A stretch of 20,805 nucleotides of DNA from contig NW_021823869.1 in assembly GCF_006345805.1 (NCBI RefSeq), forward strand, positions 1 through 20,805, read 5' to 3'. Position numbers and translations under genes: made by a program. Below the pieces are notes generated by a model. It saw only the letters and a list, made by a program, of their open reading frames with translations. It was not told the DNA's origin and searched no databases. Positions 157-20,805 of this stretch are shown piece after piece (the first letter of the stretch is position 1; each line of letters starts with the position of its first letter). Origin of the DNA: Octopus sinensis. Taxonomy: Eukaryota.

Positions 157-361
157 AAGATAGACAGACAGAGAGACACATACAGACATACATTCATACA
201 TACATGTGAGGATAGATATAGATACATGCATACATAAATATATACACACACATACATACACACACATACATACATACATACATACATACATACATACATA
301 CATACATACATACATACATACATACATACATACATACATGCATACATACATACATACATAC
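40..361. repeat. Compound microsatellite (TG/TC/TA/GA, then a long (CATA)n)
   Basis: Directly visible di- and tetranucleotide runs; (CATA)n at about 266-361. Confidence 0.95.
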
Positions 362-476
362 AAATGTGAATTTACCTTTGTTAAATACATCCCAAAGATG
401 GAGCCTTGTATCTTTGTTGGAAGCCGGCTCCCTCCTCAGTGGAAGATTTATAATAATTAAAAAATAGAAGTGACAT
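362..476 (+). mobile_element. Diverged 3' UTR fragment of the R4/Dong-like LINE
   Basis: CCAAAGATGGAGCCTTGTATCT..GGAAGCCGGCTC resembles the 3' UTR motif at 1057-1100 and 17722-17768; ends in TGACATAAATACATA. Confidence 0.45.
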
Positions 477-484
477 AAATACAT

Positions 485-1142
485 AAACCTGAAGCCAAAG
501 AAATAAGAATCTACAGTATGGTGAAGGCCATAGTTACTCATAATGAAAAGGAGTACTGGTGGAATGTCGTAGTGAAAACCGCAATAAAATATAAGCATAA
601 TAGGCCTGACATAGTAACTGGGGATGGAGGAGAGAAACTGTGAACAGTTGTAGAAATCAGCTGCCAGCGAATGTTAGCATGAAGCTAAAGATCAACGAAA
701 AAAGGAGATACCTACGCTGTACTATCGGGGAATCTACAGCTAGTGTAACGAGAGTTGAAGTTCAGATGTATACCTGTAATTTGGGGGGCACTGAGATATG
801 TAACACAGTGCTAAATACCAATCTTGAGAAATTAGGCTCCTCAAAACCAAAAAGGAGAAAACTGATTCGAAGACTACAGATCTAAGCTATCACTGGAACT
901 GTAAAAATCTGCAAAACTTTCAAGAAGTTTATCAATCAAGTATATATGAGTATATCTAGATGCGCAAATATGCACAAGAACACATACATAAAACAAGATA
1001 TACAAATCTGCACATATACATACACACGAAAGTACCCTGTTGATGTTGTTGAAGTTCCAATGAGGGAACCTTGCATCTAGGATGGAAACCGACTCTTTCT
1101 CCATTGGCAAGATGTCTTGAAATAAAACTGAATAATGACGTA
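485..1142 (+). mobile_element. 5'-truncated, degraded R4/Dong-like non-LTR retrotransposon (restriction-like endonuclease C-terminus plus 3' UTR)
   Basis: Manual translation from 485 across stops and frameshifts: KEYWWNVVVKTAIKYKHNRPDIV..EKL*TVVEISC/PANVSMKLKINEK/..IPVIWGAL..LEKLG..LQI*AITGTVKICKTF. RPDIV..EISCP..K and PVI.GAL are typical RLE motifs. The 3' UTR ends TCTTGAAATAAAACTGAATAATGAC, followed by CATA repeats. Confidence 0.8.
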
Positions 1143-1158
1143 ATACATACATACTGAA

Positions 1159-1568
1159 TACTATTTTACTATTTTACTATTTTACTATTTTACTATTTTA
1201 CTTGTTTCAGTCATTTGACTGCGGCCATGCTGGAGCACCGCCTTTAGTCGAGCAAATCGATCCCAGGACTTATCTTTGTAAGCCCAGTACTTATTCTATC
1301 GGTCTCTTTTGCCGAACCGCTAGGTGAGGGGACGTAAACACACCAGCATCGGTTGTCAGACAATGCTAGGGGGACAACAAACACAACACACACATATATA
1401 TATATATATATACGACAGGCTTCTTTCAGTTCCGTCTACCAAATCCACCACAAGGCATTGGTCGGCCCGGGGCTATAGTAGAAGACACTTGCCCAAGATG
1501 CCACGCAGTGGGACTGAACCCGGAACCATGTGGTTGGTTAGCAAGCTACTTACCACACAGTCACTCCT
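1159..1568 (-). mobile_element. Full-length tRNA-derived SINE, type A
   Basis: Minus-strand head AGGAGTGACTGTGTGGTAAG..GGTTCAGTCCC (A/B-box-like), internal CA/TA microsatellite, (TAAAATAG)n tail; body nearly identical to 10524-10824 and 20584-20805. Confidence 0.9.
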
Positions 1569-2432
1569 ATACACATTCCTTCTCTTTTTTTTATTTTCAT
1601 TTTTAATGACATTATTTCTGGTGTTTGTAAAAGTTAATGGCACCGGATGTGGTTTTAGTTGTGTTTGGGCTTCATCTTACAGCATTTTCTGTGCCACCTG
1701 GCTCGCACCAACGAGTAGTTCTTCTTCTTCTTAACATTCTTGCTATTTATTTTGGTTAGTTCGATTCTCTATCAAAATATCCGAGTTCAGTTTCTGAAAT
1801 GTGAACTTACAATGGTATATGAACGAGAAAATTCATTTTTCTTTCATTTTCAGTAAATGGAGCTCTAGAAAGATAGGTTTTTAAAGTTTGTTGCTGGGTT
1901 TCTCATGAAGTTTCCATGCCCGCCGTAGGAGGCCAACTTCTTCAAGTTTTAAATTTAATTTTACTATTTCTTAATTTTATATGCTTCGCTTTTTGTTGTT
2001 GTTTAAATTTTATTTACTGTCAGAAAGTACAGTATATGGTTTTATACGTCTATATATTCGTGACGAATAAGTATCGGAAATAGCAGAGAACGTAAGAAAT
2101 TTCGGGAATAATTCTTTTTGAGAATAATTCTTTTTACGGGTTTTGCTGATTATATTTTACAGCTTAGAATCTTCCAAATAAAAAACTTCTACATGTATAT
2201 GTTCGTGACGAACAGGTGTCGTAAGCAGCGTATAAGCATGCGATAGACAGGTAAATAGGATTTAGATATATTCAAATAGCAAGGTAAAATAAAACTGAGA
2301 TACAAATGTAAAACTAACCCAATCCATTCCTGTAGAAATGGGAGCCGGCGGATAAGTGAAACTCATAAAATATATAAATACTAGCATACCCGTGTCTTTA
2401 AAAGTGCTGACAGTTTATATATATATACACAT

Positions 2433-2813
2433 CGTGGCACTCTTATGACGACAAGGGTTCAATTTGATCCGACCAACGGAACAGCCTGCTCGTGAAATTA
2501 ACGTGCAAGTGGTTGAGCACTCCACAGACACTTGTGCCCTTAACGTAGTTCTCGGGGAGATTCAGTGTGACACAGAGTGTGACAAGGCTGACCCTTTGAA
2601 ATACAGGTACAACAGAAGCAGGAAGAAAGAGTAAGAGAAGGTTGTGGTGAAAGAGTACATCAGGGCTCACCCACCTCACCCCGCTGCCGGGACCTCGTGC
2701 AGCTTTAGGTGTTTTCGCTCAATAAACACTCACAACGCCCGGTCTGTGGATCGAAACCATGATCCTACGACCGCGAGTCCGCTGCCCTAACCACTGGGCC
2801 ACTGTGACTCCAC
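2433..2813 (-). mobile_element. Full-length tRNA-derived SINE, type B
   Basis: Minus-strand head TGGCCCAGTGGTTAGGGC..GGTTTCGATCC; head matches 10825-10979 and 3' half matches 20172-20350. Confidence 0.9.
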
Positions 2814-2848
2814 ATATACATACATACACACATACATATGGTGTGCCT

Positions 2849-2924
2849 CCTTCCGTTTCCGTCAACCAAATCTACTCACAAGTCTTTAGTCGGCCCTGGG
2901 CTATAATAGAAGACACTTGCTGAA
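2849..2924 (-). mobile_element. Internal fragment of type A SINE
   Basis: TTTCCGTCAACCAAATCTACTCACAAG..GGCTATAATAGAAGACACTTGC matches 1428-1493. Confidence 0.8.
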
Positions 2925-3059
2925 CATATTAATCTATGCATGTGCGCACACACACGCACATACACTCACACGCACTCACACACACACTCACACACACACG
3001 CATACACACATACCGATTCATACATATACACGTATATATATACATATATATAGTATATA

Positions 3060-3290
3060 TATATTATATTAAATTAGAGACAAAACCACTATTATGCAGA
3101 TCAAACAATGAAAGACTTAAACCAATACATAAATTAATTTATATTATTTAGATATGTAACAATTATTAAAAAATATAATTAATAATTTTTTGTCTCTAAT
3201 TTAATATAATATAATATTTTACTATAAAATTGGATTCAACCTAAATCTGATTTTTCCCTGTAAGTTTGGATTTATTCCCTAATATTTATT
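3060..3290. repeat. Inverted-repeat element in (TA)n, with 26-bp arms and a one-sided extension
   Basis: 3060-3085 TATATTATATTAAATTAGAGACAAAA is the exact reverse complement of 3188-3213; TA runs on both sides. Confidence 0.65.
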
Positions 3291-3298
3291 ATATATAT

Positions 3299-3345
<47 letters not shown>

Positions 3346-3593
3346 ACATCTATGCATGTGCATACGTATGTCCATGGGATTGTGTTTCCGTGTGTGTCTG
3401 CGCGCGCATGTTCACTGGAATTAGGAAGATCGGTGTGAAAGATTGATGGAATCAGTGTCGCCAATAATTTCGTTTGTGACGTGTGAAGTATCTTATCCTT
3501 TAGATGCAAAGAGGAATTCAGGATTAGCGACAGAAAGGGCAAGCATACACAGACAACACTAAAACAAAAGACAGTAAAAACAGGAAAGAATAT

Positions 3594-3686
3594 ATAACAT
3601 ATATATGCACATGCATATATATATATACAACATATATATATATATATTGTATGTGTGTTGTCTGTGTGTGTATGTATATATATATG

Positions 3687-3727
<41 letters not shown>

Positions 3728-3748
3728 TATGTATGTATGTATATATAT

Positions 3749-3794
<46 letters not shown>

Positions 3795-3820
3795 TATGTA
3801 TGTATGTATGTATACATATT
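3594..3820. repeat. Compound (TA)n/(TATG)n microsatellite
   Basis: Directly visible; the block (TA)n-GGTATGTATGTATGTA occurs twice. Confidence 0.9.
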
Positions 3821-4008
3821 TACATAAAGAGGTGATAAATTGAATATTAATTTAATTAACATTAGTTTAAAACCAGTGGTCTATCACATAGAAAAATCTG
3901 AAAATTCAGAAAAATTGTATTACTTGCGTATAAGAAGTTATGACCACTAAGTGGACATCCAATATGCTAGAAATAGATCACCTACGATCTAACCACAAAG
4001 GAAGAGAA

Positions 4009-4055
<47 letters not shown>

Positions 4056-4741
4056 TACGTGCAAGATGATATCTTGAAAACAAAAGTGTTCAATATTTAA
4101 TTTCTTATATATTTATGCGGATGTTTTAGTGTGTGAAATCGATAACATACAATTTAATTTAATTAAAAAAATTTTGCAGTTTTATTTTGATTAATGTACC
4201 AAGGACACCAAACCAAAAACTCTCACTACACCTTCCTACATTTAGCGTCTCTGACCGTAACGCACTCTCGCACTTGTTGTTGTTTTGGTTTCCCTCTACC
4301 AACGTAACCGACGTCGAACACATTGCGTTTTATCACATATGAGATTATATCCTAAATTCTGAATTCAACTTTGTTTAAAATATTAGGGGTCGTTGATCCA
4401 AAAATCCGATTTATGGTTGTAAAATGTGGTTAATTTTGAACGTATAAGTAAGTTATCTCGATATAATTTACTTAATTTTCAGTTATAATATGTAATTTGT
4501 CCATGTTCTATCAGTGAAGCACAATGTCCACAAAACGAACCGTTTCCATGCTACAGAGATTTTGGACAAATTATTCTAGTTGTCATTTATATATATATGT
4601 ATATTTATATATATGTGTGTGTGTGTGTATAATATATTATATATATATGTATACTCAGACCCACAGACCATATATATAAATATATATATATATGTATGTA
4701 TATATACTCAGACGAACAGACAGACACACAGACACAAAAAC

Positions 4742-4776
<35 letters not shown>

Positions 4777-4787
4777 AAGATAGATAA

Positions 4788-5464
4788 GTTTCTTTATTGG
4801 CCACACAGGGCTGCACACAGATGGGACAAGTTACAAGGTAGAGCTTTTCTTTGGGGAGGGTGAAAAAACTAAAACAAAAAAAGAACAAAAGAAAAAAATA
4901 AAGGTGGCGTAGGTTTTCGATCAAAAGGGATCGTAAAAGTGAAAAAAGAACAAAAAAAAGAAAAGAAAAGATAAAAAAAAGGAAAAGGAACAAAAGAAAA
5001 GAAAATGAAAAAAGAAGAAAAAAGAGGAAAAAAAGAGGGAAGAGGAAAAAAAACGATCAATAGGGATCGTGTATCACAGTGTCATGATGTATGGTGTAAA
5101 GGGGAAAGCAAGTAAGGTTTATCCGTGAGAAGAAAAACCTACGGAAAAGACCACGGTAACCTTGGTCAATATTGTTATATATTACCACATTTGTTTGCAA
5201 GTGGGTAACCCTCTGTTTTCAATTTCTGGGTTCATAGGATTATGCTCAAGGTGGCTTCGTCATTCATACGTGCCATCCTTGCTACATTCACCCATCTTTT
5301 TTTAAAAATTCGCTAGACAAAACTTGCCTCTCTACTCTCACTTCCTTTTCAAGTGGTACTTGAAGAAGTTGATGAGAGGTGACCAGAGAGGAAAGTGTTT
5401 GTCTCCAATCCTTTCAGACGCGTCCACCAGATACATTCTTTCGCCATAGCCACAAGGATGATGA

Positions 5465-5465
<1 letters not shown>
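4788..5465 (-). mobile_element. 5'-truncated Tx1/L1-like LINE (ORF2 C-terminus plus 3' UTR), flanked by (GATA)n
   Basis: Minus translation with frameshifts: FIILVAMAKECIWWTRLKG../LINFFKYHLKRK/VRVERQVLSSE/FKKRWVNVARMARMNDEATLSIIL*, stop at 5232-5234. The AK..IW..R and F...W pattern fits Tx1/L1 ORF2 ends. U-rich 3' UTR with terminal AATAAAGAAA. Confidence 0.75.
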
Positions 5466-5546
<81 letters not shown>

Positions 5547-5569
5547 GAATAGATGGCTACATACATACA

Positions 5570-5608
5570 TCTATTGGCAAAAAAATCTTGAAATAAACTG
5601 AATAATAA
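5570..5608 (+). mobile_element. Extreme 3' end (about 39 bp) of the R4/Dong-like LINE within (CATA)n
   Basis: TCTATTGGCAAAAAAATCTTGAAATAAACTGAATAATAA matches 1099-1138 and 17766-17803; CATA repeats on both sides. Confidence 0.75.
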
Positions 5609-6313
5609 CATACATACATACATACATACATACATACATACATACATACATACATACATAAAAAAGTGCCCTGGACTCTACATTTCCCCGTTGGTTGAAG
5701 ACGATTCAAAGAAACAAGGTTGTGTTTGTACAACGACGAGCATTGGAACCAAATCTGTAATGCCAGCAGCCCTATGTGTGATTTCTATAGTCAGAACTGG
5801 AGGAATGGTTTCCCACCGAATTCGAAGAACACAAATGGTGTTTTCTTTTTCGACAGTTTTTGAATCTCGTTTGCAATAAATTTACGAAATTCTGGCAATT
5901 CTGAAGAAAGACAGGTAACAAATGAAATAGAGGAAGCCGAAAGTGAAATGTTTATAATACTGTTTAGCTGTCTCCGTCTGGTGATCGATAGAGCAGCACC
6001 GTTTTATTCATGCTAAATTTACCTGTACTTTCGGCGGTAACGATACAGAAACAATCGATTCAAGGAATGATTTCCCCGAAGGAATTATTTTATAGCAATT
6101 CCTTCACTCTTCATAATAGGTGAGAAGGCCTTTTACCTCTGTGCAAGTTAACTTAATTTCCTTCAGCGAAATGGATTCCACAGGAGTTGCAGCTAAGTCC
6201 GTTACATTATCACTAAATCCGAGCAGAAGAACGCTTATTAGCAAATTCAGTTAATACGATTCCAATTGAATTTCGTTTGCCAGAAAGAGCGCTTCCACCT
6301 GTAAGTATATATA

Positions 6314-6349
<36 letters not shown>

Positions 6350-6353
<4 letters not shown>

Positions 6354-6658
6354 GAAATATTAAAATTACTAAGTCTCTCTAAAGGAGATTACGGCAGCGT
6401 TACTGGATATTAATAGTTATCGCCATAGTAATATGGCAGTCTATAAATATAAGACTAAAGCCGTCGCTGATTAGCTCCAAGACATCTGCAGATGTCTGAC
6501 TAGCAAGGTGAAGCGGCTGACCTTCCCTGTTCGAAGGTTGTAATGGACGCAGGTTCGTGTGACATATACCTAGCTAGAGGCGTGGCCTCTTGGAGCTAAT
6601 CAGCGACAGCTTTAGTCTTATATTTATAGACTTCCATATTAGTATGGCGATAACTATT

Positions 6659-6663
<5 letters not shown>
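6350..6663. mobile_element. Foldback/MITE-like or Penelope-like inverted-repeat element in (TA)n
   Basis: 76-bp arms 6407-6482 and 6588-6663 with 3 mismatches, 105-bp spacer, extra unpaired sequence 6350-6406, (TA)n on both sides. Confidence 0.7.
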
Positions 6664-6692
<29 letters not shown>

Positions 6693-6913
6693 ACCTTATA
6701 CCCTTAGTCCGACAAAATATATTTTGTTTCACCACAGTGCTTCGTTAGACATTGAACTAAGTGGTGTGGTTCAGCCGATTTAATAGGGACTGGGTAGAAG
6801 GATAGATACAAAAGTAAAGAATAGTGGGTAGGGTGTGGTACTGGACAAAATGGAAGTCTACATAATACCCAGAAGATGGTTGAGGCGTGAGATCATTTAC
6901 AAAATCTGTAATA

Positions 6914-7309
6914 TCTCTCTATATATAAACGGCAGTTTGTCTGTGCGTTTTCTGTGTGTCTGTTTTCTCGTACCCTCACTCTGACCACGGCTTTCAACCG
7001 ATTCTGATGAAACTTGACACACACATAGCCCAATGTCATAATTTAAAACTAACGCAGCGAAAATTTTGAAAAGTTCCCCCAGTTCTGAAAAAAATCGATA
7101 AATTCGACATGGGGTCGAGAATCAGAAACACAAACCACAGACAGTCTAGGGGACGCAACTCCACCTGTTTTAACTCTCAAAAAAAATTTACCATAATTTT
7201 TTTTTCCATTTTTTTCCCATTTTTTTGCTATTTTTTGGCTATAACTCTCTAAAAATGCTTTATAGTTATTTCCCTTACAAACCTGAGCAACGCCGGGCGA
7301 TACTGCTAG
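6914..7309 (+). mobile_element. Non-autonomous Helitron
   Basis: 5' TC(TCTCTATATATAAA), subterminal GC-rich hairpin CCTGAGCAACGCCGGG, 3' CTAG; inserted between A (6913) and T (7310) with no TSD. Confidence 0.85.
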
Positions 7310-7559
7310 TATGGTAATAAATTGGAAATATATAAATGGTTATTGAGCTGAGGTTGGTGCCAGTAATATACGTGAAGTGTCGACAAAGGGAATCGGTATT
7401 TCTTATTAGTAATTACGAAGGGAACATGCGGGAACCGGCGTAATGCAGTTCCTTGGGGATACGAGAACAGGTGTGTGAGGGGGGTGGGGCTCTGAGATTG
7501 TTGTAGGGTAGGGCAGACTTTCGCAGGCTAAAATAAAACGCTGGTAATGCGCCAGGTTG

Positions 7560-7962
7560 TAATAACTCTTTCTTCCATCGGTAGAAGACTTGGAATTTTG
7601 AGGGGAGGGGGGTCAAGCTGATTTGATTTCATCGAAACCCAGTGCTCCACTGGTGCGCTTATTTGTATATTGACTCCTGCGTTCTGAGTTCGAATTCCGC
7701 CGAGGTCGACTTCGCCGTTTATCCATTGGGGGTAGTTGAAACAAGTAGCAGTTATGCACTTGGGTCGATGTAATTGACTAGCCCCCTTCCCCCCAAAAAA
7801 ATGTTCGAGGCTTTGTGCCTAGAGTAGAATGAATTATATATCGACTGTGAAAGGATGAACGACAAAGTCGATCTCAGCTGAATTCGAACTCAGAACGTAA
7901 GGATCCGGGACACATACCGCTCAACATTTTGCTCGACTTGCTACCAATTCTGTCAGCTCACC
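7560..7962 (-). mobile_element. Type E SINE, split by a nested antisense copy
   Basis: 7560-7675 and 7837-7962 together match the reverse complement of 11856-12069. Confidence 0.75.
7678..7836 (+). mobile_element. 5'-truncated type E SINE nested in the opposite-strand copy
   Basis: CGTTCTGAGTTCGAATTCCGCCGAGGTCGAC..GTCGATGTAATTGAC..TGCCTAGAGTAGAA aligns to 11916-12060; flanked by TATATTGACT / TATATCGACT (TSD-like). Confidence 0.75.
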
Positions 7963-9139
7963 TAGCGTGACTTAAAAACAAAAGAATAAAGTAAACGGGA
8001 TTAATTTTATTATTTCATTCCTATAAGTACGCTCCAATGATACAAGTTAATGAGATTTATTTTTTAAGGAAATAATCACAATTTTTTTTATTGTTTCCCT
8101 CCTGAACAAGTAATGCTCATGAAGTTGTGCCACTGACATTTACGTAAAGGAATGATGTAATTAAATTAATCTGTCTTATAGTTCTCTTGCTGTTCAATCA
8201 TGATATGTGCCGTGTGCTTCTTACAGTCTGTGCATCTGAATCATACAATTATGTGATATTTTCCAGGCGTATTTATTGAACTGCAACAGAGGATACGTAC
8301 AAAGTAAGGGCAACTCTGAAACGATCTAGAAGTTAAGGTTTGCAAGTTGTCAGAGAGAATGTTTAGTTAGGAAATCAACATTGATTCCTAATATTGACAT
8401 AAAATGTTGCTGAAGGATATTTGAAGATTTGTTCAATTCTTAGCTGATATTTTAAACGTAAAGAAGCTCAAATATACACCTGGTAGTATATTGTTCAACG
8501 TTCTGTTGTTTCTGAAACTGAACTGCTAAACAGAAACAAAAAGTGCTGTTAAATATGAAAATAAAATAAAAGAACATCTGTGAAGGCAAACGTTTCTTCG
8601 CTCCCTTTTTGTACATGTCCCTCTATTATTTCCTTCAAGAAATAATGGCTTTGAATAACGATTAATACGAAATATTAGATTTCGTTATTTCTCAGGGCAC
8701 CCGAATATTAGTCAACTCTATACTTTCTAATCTAATATTGGCAAGGGAGCGACAATTCTAATTGTAGTAAATTTATGAGAAATACGTCGATGATTATTAT
8801 TCCGTTTTGTTGTTGTCTAACGTAGTTTCAGAGTAATAAGATGCCTAAACACACTTGTACCGTATTTTCTTCGAAATTGCCTTCACAACGATGTTAAGGT
8901 AAAGTGCAGGCGACTGTGTGTTTGGAAAATATTGGTTCCAAATCGGTGTAAATAATGATATTCGTCAACGTCTCTCGCCATTTAGACTTCGCTTATACCA
9001 GCCAAAAGAAATTAGATTTTTTCTGGTTCGGGAAACTCTTTTAAATTTGATTTGCTTTGTGAGAGCTTATTTGAAAACAGTCCAAAAATAACCAAAATTG
9101 GAATGAACTTTGGAATACTGCTATAATAATATTTGCATT

Positions 9140-9263
9140 ATGATGAGAATGCCTGCAGTCAGGACTGTGGTATTGACGGCATTGTATGCCAGCGTTTTTC
9201 TCTTTTCACTCACGAGTTCGAAACACCCCGTGAGTCACCGTGCCATGGGTGCAGTGAATCAAG
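9140..9263 (+). CDS. Probable first coding exon of a secreted or membrane protein (signal peptide); product unknown, partial
   Basis: ATG..MMRMPAVRTVVLTALYASVFLFSLTSSKHPVSHRAMGAVNQ plus 1 nt; basic n-region, hydrophobic core and small-residue cleavage region; consensus donor AAG|GTGAGT (phase 1); GC-richer than flanks and inside a ~1.8 kb repeat-free block. Confidence 0.6.
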
Positions 9264-9756
9264 GTGAGTTCATATACTAAATTTAACATATAAAATTATT
9301 AGCAACAACTATATCAAAATTAAAAGAGATACACTGTTGAAAGCCTTCTAACCTGTGGTGTAAGTCTCGAGGAAGAATCTTTTGCAGTTATATCATATTA
9401 AAAATACACAGAAAGGTATCAACAGTAAATATTTTCAATATTTCTGAGATTTTTAACACTATACATTTATAAGAAATTATTTCTCGAGACGAAGCCTTTA
9501 ACAATATATTTACTTAAATATTATATACAGATCGCTAATTTGGACTAATACTGCTTCGTCGCTAATAACGAGTATGAAGTATATATCAGCATCGTATTGG
9601 AGTTGAATTATATAGTTTCTCCTACAAACTGTGGCCTTGAGAGTAAGCAGTATTTGTAAATATAAATAGCATTATATTGTATTCAGTTATATGTTATATA
9701 TTATCTATATATTAATACACTAAAACCGAATACGAAACGCTGACGAATGCGTTACG

Positions 9757-10125
9757 ATGAAGAGAGAGGCGAAGAGTGAGAGAAAAACGAGAGAGAAAAA
9801 GAGGGAAAGAGGAAAAGAGGGAGAGATAAAAAGTGGTCGGGAGAAGTGTTAACACGTGATGTTGGGGAAAGTAATAGTTATTGCGCTAAGACCCTGTTAA
9901 ATATTTAGTTGAAGGGAGAAAGGAAATGAGAAGGAGAGGGAGTGTTAGCGCTGAGAAATAAGAGAAAGGTATTGTTATTACGTTGTGTGGTTAGTTGGAG
10001 AAAGAGGTAGAAAGAAGATACAGTGAGAGGGAGAGAGAGAGAGAAAGAGAGAGAGTTAAACATATCAAGTACAGGGGCGCGTGGTATGGTTGGAGGGAGA
10101 GGCAAAGAGGGACAGTGAGAGAATG
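9757..10125 (+). repeat. Purine-rich (GA) low-complexity tract
   Basis: Strong G/A strand bias with short (GA)n runs. Confidence 0.6.
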
Positions 10126-10523
10126 AGTTTTGACTGAAATGAACGCGGGAGGGGAAAGTTGTTGCGTGATTTTAAACGTGGCAGAGTAGAATGCTGTGAA
10201 AGATAATAAAAGGAAAGTTTAGTTGTTGCTACAAGTTTTAATGTTCAGCCGTTTCTATATCTTCAAGATATAATGACACATAGTTAAGTTAGAGTATAAA
10301 GAAAAACGAAGAGAGAAAAGGAAAAAAAGGGAAAACATGAAACCATACAAAAAAAACATAAAGGAAAGCCAATGAAACGGGAAAAAGCTACAAAAATTCA
10401 ACAGTTGTTCGAAGTTAAATCAAAGTGAAATCATCTTATCATGTAGTTGTGGAGGCTGATTCTTACCTGTTTGTGCGTAGCAGCCCAAAAACTGACGTCA
10501 TACTGGGGAACCACAATCATATA

Positions 10524-10824
10524 TACTCTTTACTCTTTTACTCTTTTACTTGTTTCAGTCCTTTGACTGTGGCCATGCTGGAGCACCGCCTTTTTTAGTC
10601 GAGCAAATCGACCCCAGGACTTATTCTTTGTAAGCCTAGTACTTATTCTATCGGTCGCTTTTGCCGAACCGCTAAGTTACGGTGAGATAAACACACCGGC
10701 ATCAGTTGTCAAGCGATGTTGGAGGGGGGGGCGGAGACAAACACAGACACACAAACATACACACATATATATTTATACATATATACGACAGGCTTCTTTC
10801 AGTTTCCGTCTACCAAATTCACTC
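10524..10824 (-). mobile_element. Type A SINE, body and tail only
   Basis: Matches 1195-1450; (TAAAAGAG)n tail; the type A head is absent. Confidence 0.9.
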
Positions 10825-10979
10825 GTACAGCAGGGATTGCCACCACCCCCTGCCGGAGCCTCGTGGAGCTTTAGGTGTTTTCGCTCACTAAACACTCACA
10901 ACGCCCGGTCTGGGAATCGAAACCGCGATCCTACGACTGCGAGTTCGCTGCCCTAACCAACGGGACATTGCGCCTCCAC
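10825..10979 (-). mobile_element. Type B SINE, tRNA-like head only, fused to the type A body
   Basis: Matches 2656-2813. Confidence 0.85.
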
Positions 10980-11852
10980 ATATTATATTATATTATATTA
11001 TATTATATTATATTACATTGCATTGCATTACATTATATTATATTATACTAGCAGTATCGCCCGGCGTTGCTCGGGTTTGTAAGGGAAATAACTATATAAG
11101 CATTTTTAGAGAGTTATAGCCAAAAAATAGCAAAAAAATGCATTAAAAATGGAAAATAAATGATGGTAATTTCTTTTTTTAAATCGTTGACTCATCGTAG
11201 ACATTTTTAAAGAGTTACTTCCCTTATATAATAGCGAAAAAAATGCATTAAAAATGGGGGAAAAATAATGGTAATTTTTTTTTAAATCGTAGACTCATCC
11301 TAGACGCGCGCTAATACCCAGAAGGGCTCGATATGAATCACGACTATAAGATACCCGCTTTTGGTTAAATTGCACCGCAAAATGTGGGAGTAGTTAGGAA
11401 TCTAAATCATAGGAGACAGACAGCACACAACCTTACTTTTATATATAAAGATTATATTATATTATATTATATTATATTATATTATATTATATTATATTAT
11501 ATCATATTATATTATATTATATTATATTATATTACATTGCATTGCATTACATTATATTATATTATATTATATTATAATAGCCTGTACAGAGAGTTATTCG
11601 TCGGAGAAAGCGGTGCTTACCATGCGTTGATAATAGGCAAATACCTTGAAACCTGGTCCGTATGTAGCATCCGCTTCTTCGGGGAATGACCTCCCTTTGC
11701 AGGCTAGAGAACACCGAGATGGTGTCAGCCCTCCTGGTGACGTTGATGATCGCCTGGGGCTAAATGCATCAGTAACACCCCCACCGCCCTGCCCTGTCCC
11801 TAGCCACATTCAGATGGCTAATGCCCCTTATGTTATATTATATTATATTATT
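10980..11852. repeat. (ATATT)n pentanucleotide array interrupted by two insertions
   Basis: Array segments at 10980-11047, 11452-11576 and about 11828-11852. Confidence 0.85.
11048..11451 (-). mobile_element. Non-autonomous Helitron
   Basis: Minus strand: A|TCTTTATATATAAAAG ... CCCGAGCAACGCCGGGCGATACTGCTAG|T; last ~90 bp nearly identical to 7218-7309; internal ~100-bp imperfect duplication (11101-11201 / 11202-11305). Confidence 0.85.
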
Positions 11853-11855
11853 AAG

Positions 11856-12069
11856 TAAGTGAACTGGAAGAATCGTTAGCTTGAAGAATCGTGAGCAGCA
11901 TTTCCTCGGCTTTTACGTTCTGGGTTCTAATTTTGCTGACGTCGACTTTGCCTTTCATCTTTTCCCGGTTGATGAAATAAATACCAGTGGAGCAGTGGAG
12001 TCGATGTAATCGATTAGCCCCCGCCTCCCTAAAATGTCAGGCCTTATACCTAGAGTTGAACCTATTATT
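11856..12069 (+). mobile_element. Diverged type E SINE
   Basis: GAACTGGAAGAATCGTTAGC..CGTTCTGGGTTCTAATT..GTCGACTTTGCCTTTCATC; homologous to both copies at 7560-7962. Confidence 0.75.
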
Positions 12070-12305
12070 TTATATTCAGTAGTATTTTGATTCTTATGCG
12101 GAGTCGTTATATGCTGGAGGCGAATGAAAAGCGTGATGTGATTTCTTATTGATGTCCTTTCAGTTATTCCTCTTAATAATTCAAAGTCCCTCTCAATATT
12201 ACAAGTGTGACACTATCATATCTGTATTAAGCATACAGAACGATCCCTTGAGGTATTTTAGCTCAGCTCTGACTCCATAATCTCCATCAACTTTAATTCT
12301 TTCAG

Positions 12306-12308
12306 TCT

Positions 12309-12361
<53 letters not shown>
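12306..12361. repeat. (TC)n microsatellite
   Basis: Directly visible. Confidence 0.95.
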
Positions 12362-12365
<4 letters not shown>

Positions 12366-12774
12366 ATATTTCTATTTCTATTTCCACCGATCGTTTATAA
12401 ATCCTGCAAACTGACAGGTTCTTTCTGCATGTTCACTGAGAAGAAGCTCAATTTTAAAAAAAACTTGTCTTTTAAATTAACCAGTTGCCTTAAAACATGT
12501 TCCACTCCTACCTGCATTCCTTTTTATTTTACGAAAATATGGCTTTAGTAGTATTACAGTTAGTTCCCTTTGTTTTAAGATATTCCCCGAGAGGAAGACT
12601 GCTTTTTATTTGTAAGAATAGATTTTCTAAACCGATTTTTTTTCTCATTTGACTCTATTGTGTATGCTAGACACAGTTATCTGTGTGTTAGATTTCCTAA
12701 AATGATTTAGTGAGGTATTTTCACACCATCACTATTTTTCATATCATCAGCGACATTACTGCCGTCTGCTGTAT

Positions 12775-12809
<35 letters not shown>

Positions 12810-12818
12810 ATATATATA

Positions 12819-12857
<39 letters not shown>

Positions 12858-12886
12858 AGTATTATATTATACTGTTATATTATATA

Positions 12887-12998
12887 ATGTTATATTAATA
12901 TGACATGCGATAATGCGATATAACATAACATATAACTGAATAAATTCTAATATTATTCTAAATTATAAAACCTAATAACGAAAGCGCTTACATACAAA
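12887..12998 (+). repeat. Left arm of a 112-bp long-range inverted repeat
   Basis: Reverse complement of 15065-15176 with 5 mismatches; inner 58 bp identical. Confidence 0.9.
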
Positions 12999-13121
12999 AC
13001 CCACACAAGACAAAATACTCACAGTTCTTCCACAAAAGCAAGTGACACTCGGTTAAATGGAAGAAATTATCTTTTAAATAGTTGAAAACGTTTAAAATTT
13101 TTTTATATAATGATATATGTA

Positions 13122-13163
<42 letters not shown>

Positions 13164-13165
<2 letters not shown>

Positions 13166-13280
13166 ATTTTCAGGTTTATTTCAAGATTTCTTGTCAAAAG
13201 AGAAAGAACCGGTTTCTAACCTAGATCTAAGGCTCCTTCTTTGGAATTTCAACACAAACAACAGAGTATTTTTATTTGCT
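13164..13280 (-). mobile_element. 3' UTR fragment of the R4/Dong-like LINE
   Basis: Reverse complement gives CTCTGTTGTTTGTGTTGAAATTCCAAAGAAGGAGCCTTAGATCTAGGTTAGAAACCGGTTC..TCTTGAAATAAACCTGAA, matching 17701-17797. Confidence 0.8.
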
Positions 13281-13369
13281 TGTATGTGTGTAAGTATAAA
13301 TGTGTGTGTGTCTGTGTGTGTGTGTCTGTGTGTGTGTCTGTGTGTGTGTGTGTTTGTGTGTCTGTTGTC

Positions 13370-13400
<31 letters not shown>

Positions 13401-15064
13401 ACATATAATACACACACACACATATATATATATATAGACTCTTCGTACTTTACAGCATTTGCATCGTTTCTATTCACGAAATGTTTTCCTGCCTTCGTCC
13501 ACCTAAACAATTTATATCACAAAAATTTTATGAGTGTCGTGACTGCGAAGATATATCTTTAGATGGCTTGTGTAGCACAGACTGAAAAATATCGAATGGT
13601 AACTACTATTGCAGCTCCAGCGGGGTGGTATCGATAAAAATAAATTTCTTTGATAATTTATAAAAAAACTATATCCACAATGGAAGTGAGAGGTGTTATC
13701 ACATTAAGGAAGAACATCTCTTAACTGTTGGCATATATTCTTTTCAAAGACACCTGTGAACAACGACGTTCTCATTTAAGTCTGCGCCGTCTCAGCAATA
13801 CGAATTTCCATAAAAGAGGCATTATCGAGAGTAGAATCTTTATCCTCTCTTACAGTTACTACTAAGCTCTATGGGAAATTTTCAATAACTAACATCATGT
13901 GTCATTGTGGCATCTTTTCTGATTCATTTTAAAGCATATAATTCATTTCATATATCCCATAGCTGAAATCGAAGACACCGATAAATATATATTTATCTCG
14001 GTATCTATAGATCTTACTTAACCTCGCATAACATTAGAAAACAGCCGGACGTGCCAGTGAAGAAAAAATGCTTCACTGGAGATTTCCGCTCTCCGCCTAA
14101 TTTAAATACAGTACAAACAAATATCTCTTCGTGACCCCCTGATTTCCTACCATGGCCACACTTGACTTTTCTTATATGTTTTATTATGTTTTGCGACCTC
14201 TTCTATTGTTTGGTTTTCTTTAACTACAACGAAGATTTCTGTTTAGACAAACAGGAAAACGTATTGAGATTTCTATTCCCTGATCATTAGCTCCCTCATC
14301 ACCGCCAGCTTCCACATAATTATCTTCATTTATAATTGTTAGGTTTTGTATTACTTTACTGCAGCATCTTTTATTTTCTTTCTCACTTCTTCTCATCCAC
14401 TTCCCTACCTTTTCCTCTTCCTCTTCTCCTGCACAAACAATTCCACTGATAAGTGCTGTTATCATTTTGGCAACTCTAACAAAGAATTTCTCATCGAAAG
14501 GAAATACCAATATATTCTATCGGCATTACTGAGTAGATTTGGGCGTGATCAAGCAAATATCATCCGTTCCTTGAATGGAATGGGAAGAGAGGTCTTACGC
14601 TATCTTCTCCGCCGTACATTTCGCATTAGAGTGTCTAGTAAGAGGTGTGCAAAGCGAATTGTCTACAAATGAGTGCCTTCAGATGGTCTAGGGGCGTCTC
14701 ACATTCTCCAACTATTTAAACGCGTTTATGTATGTGTTTCTATGTTTGTGCGTATATGTATGTATATCTTTATATATCCATGGATACGTACGCACGCAGA
14801 CACGTGGATACACACACACTCACACATTAATATATTGTTCTTTAATATGGAGAAAAAATTCGAATCCTACAGAAAAGATTGAGTTATTTTTCCGTTTAAT
14901 TGATTTTATTATATTTCGATGTAAAAACAAAATTTTATATATATATGCATAATATAATATATATAATATATATATATGCATATATATATATATATATATT
15001 AATATTATATATATATATTATATATATATATACATATATACATATATGCATATATATATAAACA

Positions 15065-15176
15065 TTTGTATGTAAGCGCTTTCGTTATTAGGTTTTATAA
15101 TTTAGAATAATATTAGAATTTAAACAGTTATATGTTATGTTATATTGCATTATAGTATGTCATATTAATATAACAT
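15065..15176 (-). repeat. Right arm of the 112-bp long-range inverted repeat
   Basis: Reverse complement of 12887-12998. Confidence 0.9.
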
Positions 15177-15473
15177 ATATAACATACCCTAGTAACTATT
15201 TTTTTCCGTGTTAATTGTTAACAAGGTAAAAATACATTCATCATATATATATATATTATATATATATATATATGCATATATACATATACAATATAAACAT
15301 ACATATATACATATACATATAATATATATATATATATAGATATATATATATAGATATATATACATACATACATAAATACATATATACATATATAAATGCA
15401 TGTATATATGTATGTATTATCAGTCGCGATTTTGATGTTGTTTGTGTTCCTGGTTAAAATCAATTTTCTTGGT

Positions 15474-15690
15474 ATAACTTAGATAACTTAGATTGGTTTC
15501 AACCCATGACTAACCCAATGGCACCACCTGGAAAAGTCTTTTAGTTCATTATTTCGGGATACCATGAACCACTCGAGCAGAGAGTTGTTGTTGGTTGAGA
15601 TGTATTCAGGTGTAGGTGGTTTATCCGGTATTTCCTGGAGGAATTTTTCCAGGTACCGTTTGAAAGTTGTGGGTCTTTTTCTACTTTAAT
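15474..15690 (-). mobile_element. 3' end of a CR1/L2-group LINE
   Basis: Minus translation IKVEKDP/TTFKRYLEKFLQEIPDKPPTPEYISTNNNSLLEW; 3' motif CAGGTGGTGC and (TCTAAGTTA)2 tail; homologous to 18780-19110. Confidence 0.75.
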
Positions 15691-17309
15691 CATATGCATC
15701 ATTAATATTCTTAAAGGAGTTACATGAACGTTACTGTTGACATATGTAGGAAATTTTCTGATATACTAAAACATGTTTTAATTTTATATTTAAGCTGAGG
15801 TTGAACCGGTGTCGTGTTTTAATGGCGGTCAAATGAACTTCAAAAATACACAGACGCAACATTGCTAACTTTCTTATAAAATACCAAACTTTTTTGCTTT
15901 CTCAAAAGTAAGCTTAAAATATCGGTGAATTTATTAATAACAGAAATGTTACATTTTTAAACAAAATTTGCATTAATAGGATAAAAAGACACAACATTTC
16001 CTTAAGTTGAGGGATTGGCGACATAATTTCGCGGTGAATCAAAGGACATCAATTTTTGTAAAAACAATAGTAAATAAAGTCAAGTCTTGTTACTCATTGA
16101 TAAGTATTTATCAACATTCATTATTATATTTATCGATTTGCCGGACATAAAAGAAAATGTTTATGATAATAGTGATAATAGGATGTAAATAATATTCATT
16201 GTTATGAATAAATTTCACGTTTCCACTCTCTTAGCCATTTTATTTTCTCGTGATTATAACATTTAGCAAGAGAAATTTTTTTTGCGGTGGCGAGGTACTG
16301 ACGATTTAATTTAGCTTAAAATATTACTTACAGTGTTACATACCCTGAAGATATGAAAACAAAGAACATTCTAGCAAAGCGCTGTAAAGTATGTTAATAT
16401 ATAAATGAATTTTCTTTAACACTTCTACCAAATTCTCAATGTTCACCCTTACAATGTTACGCGTTACGAAACCAGAGGTGCGTCAGAAAGTTCAAAACGC
16501 CTGACTAAATACTCGCCATTTAATTAAATCTCATTCCAAAATATTTTGATACCTATCCTTTCCCAGTTGGTACCTGTTATATACTGAGGTCGGTTCATTT
16601 TACGAGAAAGCCTAATTATGGCTTTCTTTTCGTTTTTTGTGTCTACGAAACAAAACGAAACAACAAATGAAAGTTTGCTTTGCTCAAAATAACAAAGCTT
16701 TTCAACATGTGTCAAATTTAGATAACAGAAATGTCTGCTAGATATTGATGAGACCCAAAGTGAAATACGTGACGAAACTTTCGTCTTTCCATCAACTTCA
16801 AAATGCTATTAGAATTGAAAAGTCTTCGATTTAACTTTAGCCGACAAGGAACCAAAATTCCAATGAATGTAACGGCATAAAAAATTCAAATACAGCAAAT
16901 AAATTCGAAATTGAGTCACTGAAAAATTTTAAACAAATTCGAAATCACGACAAGTTAAATGTGTAATGTATGATTTTGTGTGAATTAGTTTAGATTTCGG
17001 AGATCACTTGGAATACCAATGAAAATGTTTCGTAAAAAGGACAATGGAAGTAAAATTGGTAGTAATGATGACAATTTCGAATGAAAAGACGAACAAAATA
17101 AAATGTTTTCTCCCAGTGAAATTGGAATCCAAGAACAGAGAAAATCAAAATTAAAACTCAATACACGGATCTAACTAAATATTGAAGCGAAAATTTAGAA
17201 TGCAAAGCCACAACCAATTTCTCGCCGACGTTATTTTTTATATTTCAAAGAATTCTATACATACACACAGAAATAGAAATGTATCTACAGACACCGTATC
17301 AACATAAAA

Positions 17310-17414
17310 TATACACATACACACAGAGGCACAGACACACATATACACAGTCGTAAATATGTGTGTGTGCGTGTATATGTGTGCATACATACCTATAACT
17401 AAACATACATATAA

Positions 17415-17448
<34 letters not shown>

Positions 17449-17690
17449 GTATATAGATACATATGCATACATATACAAACAAATGCGTATATGTGTGTGT
17501 GTGTACACATACATGTATCATATATATACATACATATATCTATCTAAACATATATCAATCGTTCCATACGTACATCCATCCCTAAATACATGCATCCATA
17601 CATATATACATGCATACATACATACATACATACATACATACATACATACATACATACATACACACATACATACATACATACATACATGCA
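17310..17690. repeat. Compound CA/TA/(CATA)n microsatellite
   Basis: Directly visible. Confidence 0.9.
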
Positions 17691-17803
17691 TACAAAAATT
17701 CCCTGTTGTTGATGTTGAAATTCCTATGAAGGGGCCATGTATCTAGGTTAGAAACCGGATCTTTCTCTGTTGGCAAGAAATCTTGAAATAAACTGAACCA
17801 TGA
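17691..17803 (+). mobile_element. 3' UTR fragment of the R4/Dong-like LINE
   Basis: Aligns to 1025-1139; followed by CATACAT. Confidence 0.8.
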
Positions 17804-17834
17804 CATACATCCATATAATATATGTGTGACTTTT

Positions 17835-18095
17835 TCTAGTTTATTGGATCAGGTGGTCTCGTGCATTCGTTCTGTCCAGGCTAATTTCTCAAGATTGCTA
17901 TTTAGGCAATGTGTCACGTATACCAGGTCCCCAAAAATTACAGATATAAAACTGAACTTGTAATCTGCAAATTCCTCAATAGTTCAGCATCGGTGTTCTC
18001 TTTTTCACTGATCTTCAGCTGTACGTTAACAACCGTTGGGCAGCTGGTTTCGGCACCTGTGAACAGTTTCTCTTTCTATACCAAATCATCCCAAA
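17835..18095 (-). mobile_element. Degraded RLE-coding fragment of the R4/Dong-like LINE
   Basis: Minus translation KEKLFTGAETSCPTVVNVQLKISEKENTDAELLRNLQ/YKFSFISVIFGDLVYVTHCLNSNLEKLA; homologous to 630-840. Confidence 0.75.
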
Positions 18096-18164
18096 TGTAT
18101 GTATGTATGTATGTATGTATGTATATATGTATGTATGTATGTGTGTATGTATGTATATACATAC

Positions 18165-18195
<31 letters not shown>

Positions 18196-18243
18196 TGTAT
18201 GTATGTATGTATGTATTATGTATGTATGTATGTATGTATGTAT
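18096..18243. repeat. (TATG)n microsatellite, i.e. (CATA)n on the minus strand
   Basis: Directly visible. Confidence 0.95.
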
Positions 18244-18631: not shown

Positions 18632-19111
18632 CTAAACATTAGCTTCAAGGTTCATCCAAGACTTGGACCACGGGCTATACGTCCCCTGCCCAATTCAAGA
18701 TCACAACATACATGTACACTGCAACATAATTTCTTTTCCTCAACAGGCCCTGCCCTATTTAACATTGTCCCGAGGGAGATCAAAGAGGAAAAGGATCCCA
18801 TCAACTTTAAACAGAGTCTGGATAGATTCCTTCAAAGAATACCAGATAAGCCACCCATAATTGGATACAACTCACCCAACAAGAACTCACTACTTGAACA
18901 AAACTGGATACAACTCACCCAACAAGAACTCACTACTTGAACAAAACTGGATACAACTCACCCAACAAGAACTCACTACTTGAACAAAAATTGACTTAAA
19001 CAAAACTTGACTTAAACAGGATTCGAATAATGCTATCAGGTGGTGCTATTAAGTTGGACATGGCCTGGACCAATCTTTGGTCGAAACATATCTAAGTTTA
19101 TCTAAGTTATC
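18632..19111 (+). mobile_element. 5'-truncated CR1/L2-group LINE (ORF2 C-terminus plus 3' UTR)
   Basis: Open frame NISFKVHPRLGPRAIRPLPNSRSQHTCTLQHNFFSSTGPALFNIVPREIKEEKDPINFKQSLDRFLQRIPDKPPIIGYNSPNKNSLLE (GP.LFN..P and FK..LD.FL..IPD.P motifs); tail TATCTAAGTTTATCTAAGTTATC. Confidence 0.8.
18862..18989 (+). repeat. Tandem repeat, 3 x 43 bp
   Basis: TGGATACAACTCACCCAACAAGAACTCACTACTTGAACAAAAC starting at 18862, 18905 and 18948, with no spacers. Confidence 0.95.
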
Positions 19112-19563: not shown

Positions 19564-20032
19564 ATTTTCCTCTACTGGGTGTTTATGTCCTGATCTGTGA
19601 TAACCTCGATCACCTCGATATGTTAATAAGATGCCAACAAACTGTAGTTGTTACCCTGGCATCACAACCAACTTAGTGACCAATAAGCACACGCTGTTTA
19701 ACATCCAGGAGCAGTAATTATGTATTGATAACAATCTGTATAATTATATATAACAAATATAATTATGTGCTTCATAAATATGGTTGATTACGTTGATAAT
19801 ATCGATAACAATTATGTTAATGATTAATTACAATTATCAGTTATTTGGAATTGGAGAAGACGGTGGAATGTGGTATGAAGTACGTTTTACCAATTCTTCT
19901 CCAATATTACACCCTTTACTGCTCGAGGAAGCCGACTCCTTCTGGAATTTACTCTAAATTTTAGTCCAACACATATAAATAAAAAAGCATTTTGTATGAT
20001 GTGTCAATGTGCGTGTGTATATATATATACGC

Positions 20033-20357
20033 GTGAGGGCGCGTGGCTTAGTGGTTAGGGCATTCGGCTCATGATCGTAAGGTTGTGAGTTCGATTCTCG
20101 GCGACGCGTTGTGTCCTTGAGCAAGACACTTTATTTCACGTTGCTCCAGTCCACTCAGCTGGCAAAAATGAGTTGTACTTGTATTTCAAAGGGTTGGCCT
20201 TGTCACACTCTGTGTCACGCTGATTATCCCCGAGAACTACGTTAAGGGTACACGTGTCTGTGGAATGCTCAGCCATTGCCACGTTAATTTCACGAGCAAG
20301 CTGTTCCGTTGATCGTATCAGCTGGGACCCTCGTCGTCGTAACCGGCGGAGTCTTTA
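20033..20357 (+). mobile_element. Full-length tRNA-derived SINE, type D, with 12-bp TSD
   Basis: A-box TGGCTTAGTGG, B-box GTTCGATTC; ATATATATACGC at 20021-20032 and 20358-20369. Confidence 0.9.
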
Positions 20358-20423
20358 ATATATATACGCACTCGCAATACACACACACACAAATACATAC
20401 GTACGTTTGTCCCTATATATACA

Positions 20424-20572
20424 TGACGGGCTTGTTTCAGTTTCCGTCCACCAAATTCACTCTTTGATCGGCCCGAGGCTATAGTAGAAAACACATGGCC
20501 CGAGCTCTAACGCAGTGGGATTGAACCCGAAACCATGTAACTGCGAATGAAGCTTGTTACCAGACAGCCACG
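20424..20572 (-). mobile_element. Type A SINE, diverged 5' half
   Basis: Aligns to 1412-1565. Confidence 0.8.
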
Positions 20573-20583
20573 TTTGTGTGTAC

Positions 20584-20805
20584 ACTCTTTTTACTCTTTT
20601 ACTTGTTTCAGTCATTTGACTGCGGCCATGCTGGAGCACCGCCTTTAGTCGAGCAAATCGACCCCGGGACTTATTCTTTGTAAGCCCAGTACTTATTCTA
20701 TCGGTCTCTTTTGCCGAACCGCTAAGTAACGGGGACGTAAACACACCAGCATCGGTTGTCAAGCAATGCTAGGGGGACAAACACACACTACACAGACACA
20801 CACAC
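20584..20805 (-). mobile_element. Type A SINE, 3' half, continuing beyond the window
   Basis: Near-identical to 1195-1390; (TAAAAGAG)n tail. Confidence 0.9.

What the first reader, a model, noticed from the sequence alone, without database searches (positions are those of the whole stretch)
266..18243. R4/Dong-like RLE retrotransposon apparently targeting (CATA)n microsatellites
Seen: five clear fragments and one weak fragment of one family (485, 5570, 13164, 17691, 17835; weak 362). Copies truncated at different 5' positions (485 and 18095 in the coding region, 5570 at the extreme 3' end) abut CATA-type repeats on their 5' side in the element's own orientation; the 5' flank at 485 is only a short imperfect CATA run. 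The 3' ends also run into CATA. Known: RLE-bearing non-LTR elements are often sequence-specific (R2 and R4 in rDNA, Dong in TAA repeats). Inference: this endonuclease recognises (CATA)n/(TATG)n, and the family may both use and seed these arrays. Caveats: the 13164 copy ends in (CA)n, and the 3' UTR itself has a CATA-like stretch that could explain the 5' flanks at 13280 and 17691.
Basis: partly seen in the sequence, partly recalled or inferred. Interest (0 to 1): 0.75.

Follow-up and report, generated by a model that had tools for sequence, protein, structure and literature searches.

The report
CATA-seeking Dong-like retrotransposon lineage
These are broken copies of two related jumping-gene families that sit in the four-letter repeat CATA almost always in one orientation, which likely means their enzyme seeks out this repeat, likely a new landing site for a known class whose described members use TAA repeats or ribosomal genes.

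Summary
The fragments belong to a ~4.0-kb non-LTR element (family A) with RT, CCHC knuckle and restriction-like endonuclease; the 'weak' copy at 361 is the 3' UTR of a sister family B. Genome-wide, truncated copies have co-oriented CATA at the 5' junction in 32 of 43 (A) and 15 of 27 (B), against 1 and 1 for TATG and 1.1-1.5% background; TAA-type Dong copies of the same genome score 0 of 25. Three insertions lie inside the known internal CATA run of older copies, so the site pre-existed. RT and endonuclease trees put A and B in a well-supported branch apart from TAA-flanked elements, with an intact CATA-flanked relative and four CTTA-flanked ones from other organisms. 'Seeding' is minor: 0 of 23 random CATA arrays touch A or B. 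A 552-bp non-coding element uses the same sites. No intact ORF was found here; cleavage specificity is inferred, not shown. Octopus Dong-R4 families are published, this target was not found in nine searches (Repbase not checkable). The scan noted the same lineage before in another genome (e1-9815366).

The parts
178..362 (+). (CATA)n array, 5' flank of the family B fragment (likely the pre-existing target)
   Evidence: 46.8 copies; 20-nt perfect run at the junction
361..474 (+). 3' UTR of sister family B, 5'-truncated at the ORF end; ends in TGAC
   Evidence: 95% to family B reference; upstream of this UTR other B copies encode an RLE 55-65% identical to family A
475..482 (+). short imperfect CATA tail of the B copy, serving as 5' flank of the A copy
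483..1139 (+). family A, 5'-truncated (ref 3384-4043): broken RLE coding end (483-~940), 3' UTR with internal CATA run (~980-1027), terminus AATAATGAC
1140..1154 (+). short CATA 3' flank
   Evidence: (12-nt perfect run)
5558..5570 (+). short CATA run between a (GATA)n array (5465-5554) and the 40-bp copy
5570..5609 (+). family A, last 40 bp only (ref 4004-4043)
   Evidence: 90% identity, E 8e-8
5608..5660 (+). (CATA)13 3' flank
13163..13290 (-). family A 3' end (ref 3915-4043) lying in CA-rich repeats; 3' flank (CA)20 at 13125-13164
17565..17694 (+). (CATA)n array merging into the internal UTR repeat of the next copy
17693..17804 (+). family A 3' end (ref 3931-4043)
17878..18089 (-). family A, RLE fragment (ref 3515-3740), truncated at both ends
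18095..18243 (-). (CATA)n array on the element's 5' side (ATGT on +)

Best explanation
The fragments are dead copies of two sister non-LTR retrotransposon families (A and B) encoding reverse transcriptase and a restriction-like endonuclease, found in (CATA)n repeats in one orientation, and they likely got there by site-specific target-primed reverse transcription into pre-existing arrays. Inferred mechanism: the single ORF protein (three-helix Myb-like N-terminal domain, RT, CCHC knuckle, RLE) binds a CATA array, nicks the TATG strand, and extends that 3' end on the element's RNA, whose end (...TGAC then ATAC repeats) can pair with the primer; synthesis usually stops early and the cDNA is joined to the upstream half of the array through 1-5 nt of microhomology. 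Family A's own internal CATA run is a target, which stacks copies, and a hotspot of truncation or repeat-to-repeat deletion. A 552-bp non-coding element (C) would borrow the same protein. Shown: anatomy, flank bias, orientation, family specificity, nested insertions. Inferred: cleavage specificity, strand and position of the nick, priming, trans-mobilisation of C.
For: A copies chosen only by their 3' end (80 of 347 exact-motif sites) and truncated upstream of the internal repeat: >=8 nt CATA within 25 nt of the 5' junction in 25 of 33 and 7 of 10 held-out; TATG 0 and 1; background 1.5% (5480 windows) and 1.1-1.3% (400 kb random). Family B, no internal repeat: 15 of 27 vs 1. Intact 5' ends of A: 24 of 30 (27 of 30 within 60 nt), TATG 0. 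Control: TAA-type Dong of the same genome 0 of 25 CATA, 13 of 25 TAA (Fisher p 8e-10). Pre-existing site: a long A copy (L069) and element C (L415, L013) lie inside the internal run of older A copies with the host's 3' remainder downstream; L074 and L057 lie in a SINE tract that is CA/TA/CATA in uninterrupted copies. Microhomology >=2 nt at 20 of 41 junctions vs <=19% expected (p 1e-5). Intact relative L191 (1179 aa, 52% RT identity) has CATA at both ends; L192-L195 have CTTA; these group with A and B at SH-aLRT 99 (RT) and 100/99 (C-terminus).
Against: 11 of 43 A and 12 of 27 B junctions lack CATA. The two copies met in 400 kb of random DNA both lack it at their mapped 5' end. 8 of the 32 positive A junctions adjoin another family copy, three of them as tandem duplicates, leaving 24 of 35. 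Target-site duplications were not above chance (8 of 95 vs 7.7). Some copies sit in (CA)n or (TA)n, so specificity is loose or arrays have decayed. No intact ORF in the copies examined (longest open frame 345 aa); median identity to the reference about 90%. No biochemical data.
Confidence: 0.85

Rival explanations
1. Specificity comes mainly from base pairing between the RNA's CAUA tail and a nicked TATG strand; the endonuclease is only loosely specific. Insertion is still into pre-existing arrays.
For: All three elements end in TGAC followed by ATAC in phase (A 43 of 80, B 16 of 29); some A copies stop at the internal CATA run, as internal priming would give; copies also occur in (CA)n and (TA)n.
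Against: Relatives keep one repeat per lineage (CATA, CTTA, TAA), as expected for protein-encoded recognition; RLE elements are mostly site-specific through their protein (PMC4640811, PMC7998251 passages). Not separable from the best explanation by sequence alone.
Confidence: 0.3
2. The element inserts almost anywhere and writes CATA on both sides itself (tail synthesis, template jumps onto another RNA's tail, later slippage); the arrays are products, not targets.
For: The internal run and tails expand in many copies; tandem stacks exist; no target-site duplication signal.
Against: Three nested insertions into a run that is part of the host copy; insertions in SINE tracts that already hold such repeats; arrays outnumber copies about tenfold and 0 of 23 random arrays touch A or B, so targets are plentiful and independent; a jump onto another RNA should bring that RNA's UTR along, seen at no more than 8 of 43 junctions.
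Confidence: 0.08
3. Passive accumulation in microsatellite-rich, gene-poor DNA.
For: The window is far denser in copies than random DNA (6 in 20.8 kb vs 2 in 400 kb); the genome is rich in microsatellites.
Against: Cannot explain the orientation bias (47 vs 2, p 2e-12) nor that TAA-type Dong of the same genome never has CATA flanks; background microsatellite windows split 81 CATA to 84 TATG.
Confidence: 0.02

Closest known systems
Dong (Bombyx mori), DongAg, DongBg, ostracod Dong1/2; R4 clade
   Same: Single ORF with RT and restriction-like endonuclease, Myb/SANT-like N-terminus without zinc fingers, microsatellite target (PMC7998251 passages; PMC3812793 passages). N-terminal motif aligns with TAA-flanked relatives.
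   Different: Target (CATA)n, not (TAA)n; about 30-37% RT identity to TAA-flanked and lepidopteran relatives and a separate, long-branched clade; no HDV-like ribozyme detected, whereas Dong has one (PMC3774820 passages).
Octopus 'Dong-R4' repeat families
   Same: Class-level annotation in octopus genomes (PMC9115989, PMC13282606, PMC8967140, PMC10294476 passages); families A and B may be among those library entries.
   Different: The passages read give no target sequence. The abundant, ORF-intact Dong of this genome is the TAA type; A and B are a different, decayed lineage.
WaldoAg1, WaldoAg2, WaldoFs1 (ACAY microsatellites)
   Same: The target class ACAY includes (ACAT)n = (CATA)n (PMC3812793 passage), so this repeat has been chosen as a target before.
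   Different: APE-type elements; no APE family hit in 22 members of this lineage. Convergent target, unrelated enzyme.
R2 (R2Bm, R2Tg)
   Same: Best solved-structure matches over RT through C-terminus; model for the TPRT mechanism and for cDNA pairing at the upstream target (PMC13580325 passage).
   Different: R2 has N-terminal zinc fingers and targets 28S rDNA; neither is seen here.

Membership tests
R4/Dong clade | Single ORF with RT followed by CCHC knuckle and restriction-like endonuclease | tested here: met
   RVT_1 E 4e-19 in L092; CCHC, RHD, PD..E in real copies; zf-RVT in 17 of 22 lineage members; R2 matches at profile positions 389-1159. One uninterrupted ORF is seen in relatives L191-L194; in family A the reference has one frame break near position 870 that I take for a pile-up artefact.
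R4/Dong clade | N-terminal Myb/SANT-like domain, no N-terminal zinc finger (PMC7998251) | tested here: inconclusive
   Motif shared with TAA-flanked relatives and no Cys/His finger in the alignment; model is three helices, pLDDT 82; top VIA hits ISWI module Z 5.6 (rmsd 2.3, 66 aligned), Cdc5 Myb Z 5.4 (2.8, 63), GT-1 Z 5.2, tied with TetR Z 5.2; Foldseek nothing at E<=0.001.
R4/Dong clade | RT phylogeny inside the R4 clade with named references (Dong, R4, Rex6) | tested here: inconclusive
   No named reference turned up; trees are midpoint-rooted; nearest outside group is TAA-flanked and lepidopteran proteins.
Dong proper | Insertion into (TAA)n | tested here: not met
   0 of 33 A junctions with >=8 nt TAA.
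R4/Dong clade | 5' HDV-like ribozyme (PMC3774820) | tested here: inconclusive
   No ribozyme family in Rfam scan of 3 loci; 5' end fold z -1.3; no consensus fold with 3 relatives. Divergent HDV-like folds are not excluded.
R4/Dong clade | Target-site duplication | tested here: inconclusive
   8 of 95 vs 7.7 by shuffling; repeats hide duplications; two element-C sites show 12-13 nt non-repeat matches.
R2 clade | N-terminal zinc finger(s) and 28S rDNA target | tested here: not met
Waldo (R1 clade) | APE endonuclease | tested here: not met
   RLE at the C-terminus; no APE family in 22 members
HERO / NeSL clades | RT phylogeny with named references | not testable with these tools
   No reference sequences held; the RT motifs look R4-like to me (recalled, not tested).

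The most novel reading that the evidence does not exclude
An undescribed deep branch of R4-type retrotransposons has switched from the trinucleotide TAA to tetranucleotide TAC(A/T) targets, spans several animal hosts, still has intact members (L191 for CATA, L192-L194 for CTTA), and drives a non-coding passenger that shares only a 4-nt end with it: a natural one-base specificity series for mapping how Myb-like and RLE domains read simple repeats.
Probability: 0.55. Interest if true: 0.68.

Novelty: new variant of a known kind. Interest (0 to 1): 0.52.

Why it matters
Microsatellite targeting by RLE elements is known, but how specificity is encoded and changes is poorly understood (PMC3812793 passage says so for microsatellite-targeting elements). 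Intact relatives that differ in target by one base (CATA, CTTA) next to TAA-targeting ones make domain-swap and nicking assays directly possible, and add target options to the R2-type insertion tools now being engineered. For cephalopod genomics it splits 'Dong-R4' into two lineages with different targets and warns that CATA markers can be tied to multicopy flanks.

Tried and rejected
Pfam on the 52-aa window piece: nothing meaningful. PDB search with the lone RLE piece: 0 hits; the family profile did hit R2. Named Dong/R4/Rex6 anchors sought through two protein searches: none. Ribozyme at the 5' end: Rfam gave only microsatellite-driven miRNA matches below threshold; no consensus fold. Foldseek on the N-terminal model: no match at E<=0.001. 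TSD test: null. A third subfamily end after window 17878: rejected, single copy. Intact ORF in this genome: none in the loci scanned. The first careful RT tree did not finish; its quick version is quoted. Rows left out: copies starting in or 3' of the internal repeat (27 of 60, 10 of 20), L314, L328 (no 5' flank) and the window copy in family B, 3 of 30 TAA loci without a partner and 2 without a 5' end, P0026, P0093, P0099 in the second tree (too short a match). Papers PMC309301 and PMC4400214 are not held; Kojima and Fujiwara 2004, Repbase and Dfam could not be consulted; no supplements were opened.
Full report
Setting. The window is a whole 20.8-kb contig (C340) of a 2.72-Gb animal assembly. 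It is likely an octopus: the SINEs look so to me (recalled), earlier scan notes say so, and an Argonauta protein falls in the lineage; I did not test this further.

Observation. Self-comparison and mapping confirm five fragments of one family (A) at 483-1139 (+), 5570-5609 (+), 13163-13290 (-), 17693-17804 (+) and 17878-18089 (-). The 'weak' copy at 361-474 is the 3' UTR of a sister family B: 40 of 40 scored genomic hits were 92-100% identical (2301 candidates), and upstream of that UTR other copies encode an endonuclease about 55-65% identical to A's. The A copy at 483 sits directly in the tail of this B copy. The 17878 copy has no family 3' end and is followed by single-copy DNA.

Anatomy. 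Walking 5' through the genome gave a 4043-bp reference for A: ~200 nt of 5' UTR, an ORF with an N-terminal motif W.YELN...GYM..L..YW...HP, RT (RVT_1 E 4e-19 in a real copy), C-x2-C-x8-H-x4-C, RHD and PD..E, and a ~200-nt 3' UTR with an internal CATA run (3884-3930) ending in AATAATGAC. A profile of 22 lineage members matches R2 proteins from RT to the C-terminus (E 1e-53) and L1 only in RT. The N-terminal 79 residues of a real copy fold as three helices (pLDDT 82) with middling hits led by Myb/SANT-type domains but tied with TetR (Z 5.2-5.6): consistent with the Myb-like domain reported for R4/Dong (PMC7998251, passages), not proof. No copy examined has an intact ORF (longest 345 aa); 101 coding segments have median 90% and at most 95.5% identity to the reference, the low tail being family B. 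Copy number: 4514 first-look candidates; 2 copies in 400 kb of arbitrary DNA give ~14,000 with a wide interval (1,600-49,000).

Target test. I took 80 of 347 exact matches to a 34-nt 3'-end motif, a sample blind to 5' flanks. Of the first 60, 33 are truncated upstream of the internal repeat: 25 have >=8 nt perfect CATA within 25 nt of the junction, none TATG; background is 1.5% for each. A held-out 20 gave 7 of 10 and 1 of 10. Family B, which has no internal repeat, gave 15 of 27 and 1 of 27. Intact 5' ends of A gave 24 of 30 and 0. Eight of the 32 positive A junctions adjoin another family copy (three are tandem duplicates); without them 24 of 35 remain (by inspection). As a control, TAA-type Dong copies of the same genome have TAA at 13 of 25 5' junctions and CATA at none. 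Against this: 23 of 70 A+B junctions lack CATA, and both copies in the random sample lack it.

Target or product? In L069 a long A copy lies between positions 3883 and 3933 of an older A copy; in L415 and L013 element C does the same. There the CATA run is part of the host and so pre-existed. L074 and L057 lie in a SINE tract that is CA/TA/CATA in uninterrupted copies. In 400 kb of arbitrary DNA none of 23 perfect arrays of >=20 nt adjoins A or B (95% upper bound 12%), so these families use a small part of a large pool and are not its main source, though tails and the internal run do expand. Junctions show >=2 nt microhomology with the repeat phase in 20 of 41 cases against <=19% expected. Apparent 5' ends pile up in the internal run (33 of 80 in 67 bp, against 4 of 80 in the next 78 bp), which fits annealing of cDNA to the target, nested insertion, or repeat-to-repeat deletion; I cannot separate these. 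Target-site duplications were not detectable.

Relatives. One metagenome scan kept 80 of 397 loci. The closest intact one, L191 (1179 aa, 52% RT identity, no internal CATA in its UTR), has perfect CATA arrays at both ends; L192-L195 have CTTA at the ends held; more distant ones (27-40%) mostly have TAA. The RT tree (75 rows, quick search) puts A, L191-L196, L204, Argonauta and 26 unnamed proteins in one clade (SH-aLRT 99, branch 0.66) apart from TAA-flanked and insect proteins. The C-terminal tree (38 rows) repeats this at 100/99, makes A and B sisters (98/88), and places this genome's TAA-type copies on the other side. Both trees are midpoint-rooted and lack named references. Flanks are known for only 7 members of the clade (A, B, L191-L195).

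Passenger. A 552-bp element C (not in the window) with no detected similarity to A or B, no Rfam or tRNA match, 1763 candidates and ~95% identity among top copies, has CATA at 23 of 25 5' ends, TATG at none, and ends in TGAC then ATAC like A and B. It would be mobilised by A, B or a younger relative; this is inference.

Mechanism. Most likely R2-style target-primed reverse transcription: protein binds the array, nicks the TATG strand, copies the RNA from its 3' end, and the truncated cDNA joins the upstream array by short pairing (R2 precedent: PMC13580325, passages). I put insertion into pre-existing co-oriented CATA at 0.85-0.9; whether protein recognition or RNA-tail pairing sets the specificity is open (the two overlap).

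What is known. Dong elements use TAA in most insects, molluscs and cnidarians (PMC7998251, passages); Waldo elements of another clade use ACAY (PMC3812793, passages); some HERO and NeSL-related families use microsatellites (PMC4640811, passages); Dong has a 5' ribozyme (PMC3774820, passages). Octopus Dong-R4 families are annotated without targets in the passages read (PMC9115989, PMC13282606, PMC8967140, PMC10294476). Nine full-text searches found no RLE element targeting CATA or CTTA; subscription papers, Repbase, Dfam and supplements were not seen and may hold it. An unreviewed scan note on another genome reached the same reading, seen after my own tests.

Verdict. Real; a new target variant in a distinct branch of a known kind; interest 0.52.

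Noticed in passing
L066:2858-3409 (element C; loci L412-L436): 552-bp non-coding element, 1763 candidates, ~95% identical, 23 of 25 with 5' CATA, ends TGAC|ATAC, no similarity to families A or B; likely a SINE-like passenger of this lineage and younger than the A copies seen.
   Followed up: partly
L201:84-168; 5' ends of L205 and L209: TAA-flanked relatives begin with tRNA-like sequence (ARAGORN calls tRNA-Gly in L201, nothing in L205 and L209): possible Pol III-type heads on autonomous Dong-like elements.
   Followed up: partly
5' ends of L191, L192, L193 and family A: A short hairpin followed by GGAYGTG or GGCGTG about 17-30 nt from the 5' junction recurs across the lineage; it recalls a downstream promoter element (recalled); no consensus fold.
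   Followed up: partly
family A reference ~740-760 (L116-L134): A (GTA)n run inside the ORF has expanded to long arrays in many dead copies: the element seeds a second microsatellite type.
   Followed up: no
L272, L278, L282, L283, L287, L290: Copies with both ends but large internal deletions.
   Followed up: no
window, whole: Six copies in 20.8 kb against 2 in 400 kb of arbitrary chromosomal DNA; all four long CATA arrays of the window are occupied. May reflect how the window was picked or a real hotspot.
   Followed up: no
window 1163-1613, 2416-2924, 7677-7965, 10498-11008, 11836-12097, 20011-20805: Very high-copy SINE-like repeats (25-53 hits in 400 kb).
   Followed up: no
window 5047-5460: Piece of another high-copy repeat (up to 23 hits in 400 kb over 5047-5664) running into the (GATA)n array at 5465; not identified.
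   Followed up: no
window 6407-6663; 12772-12998 with 15065-15330; 7179-7312 with 11045-11178: A self-complementary stretch and two inverted repeat pairs.
   Followed up: no
window 18862-18989; 10980-11047 and 11451-11576: A perfect 43-bp tandem repeat (3 copies) and two (ATATT)n arrays.
   Followed up: no
G000 (e.g. C13:71694797, C9:90707408): TAA-type Dong is far more abundant (74,459 candidates) and has copies with open frames near 1,200 aa, unlike families A and B.
   Followed up: partly
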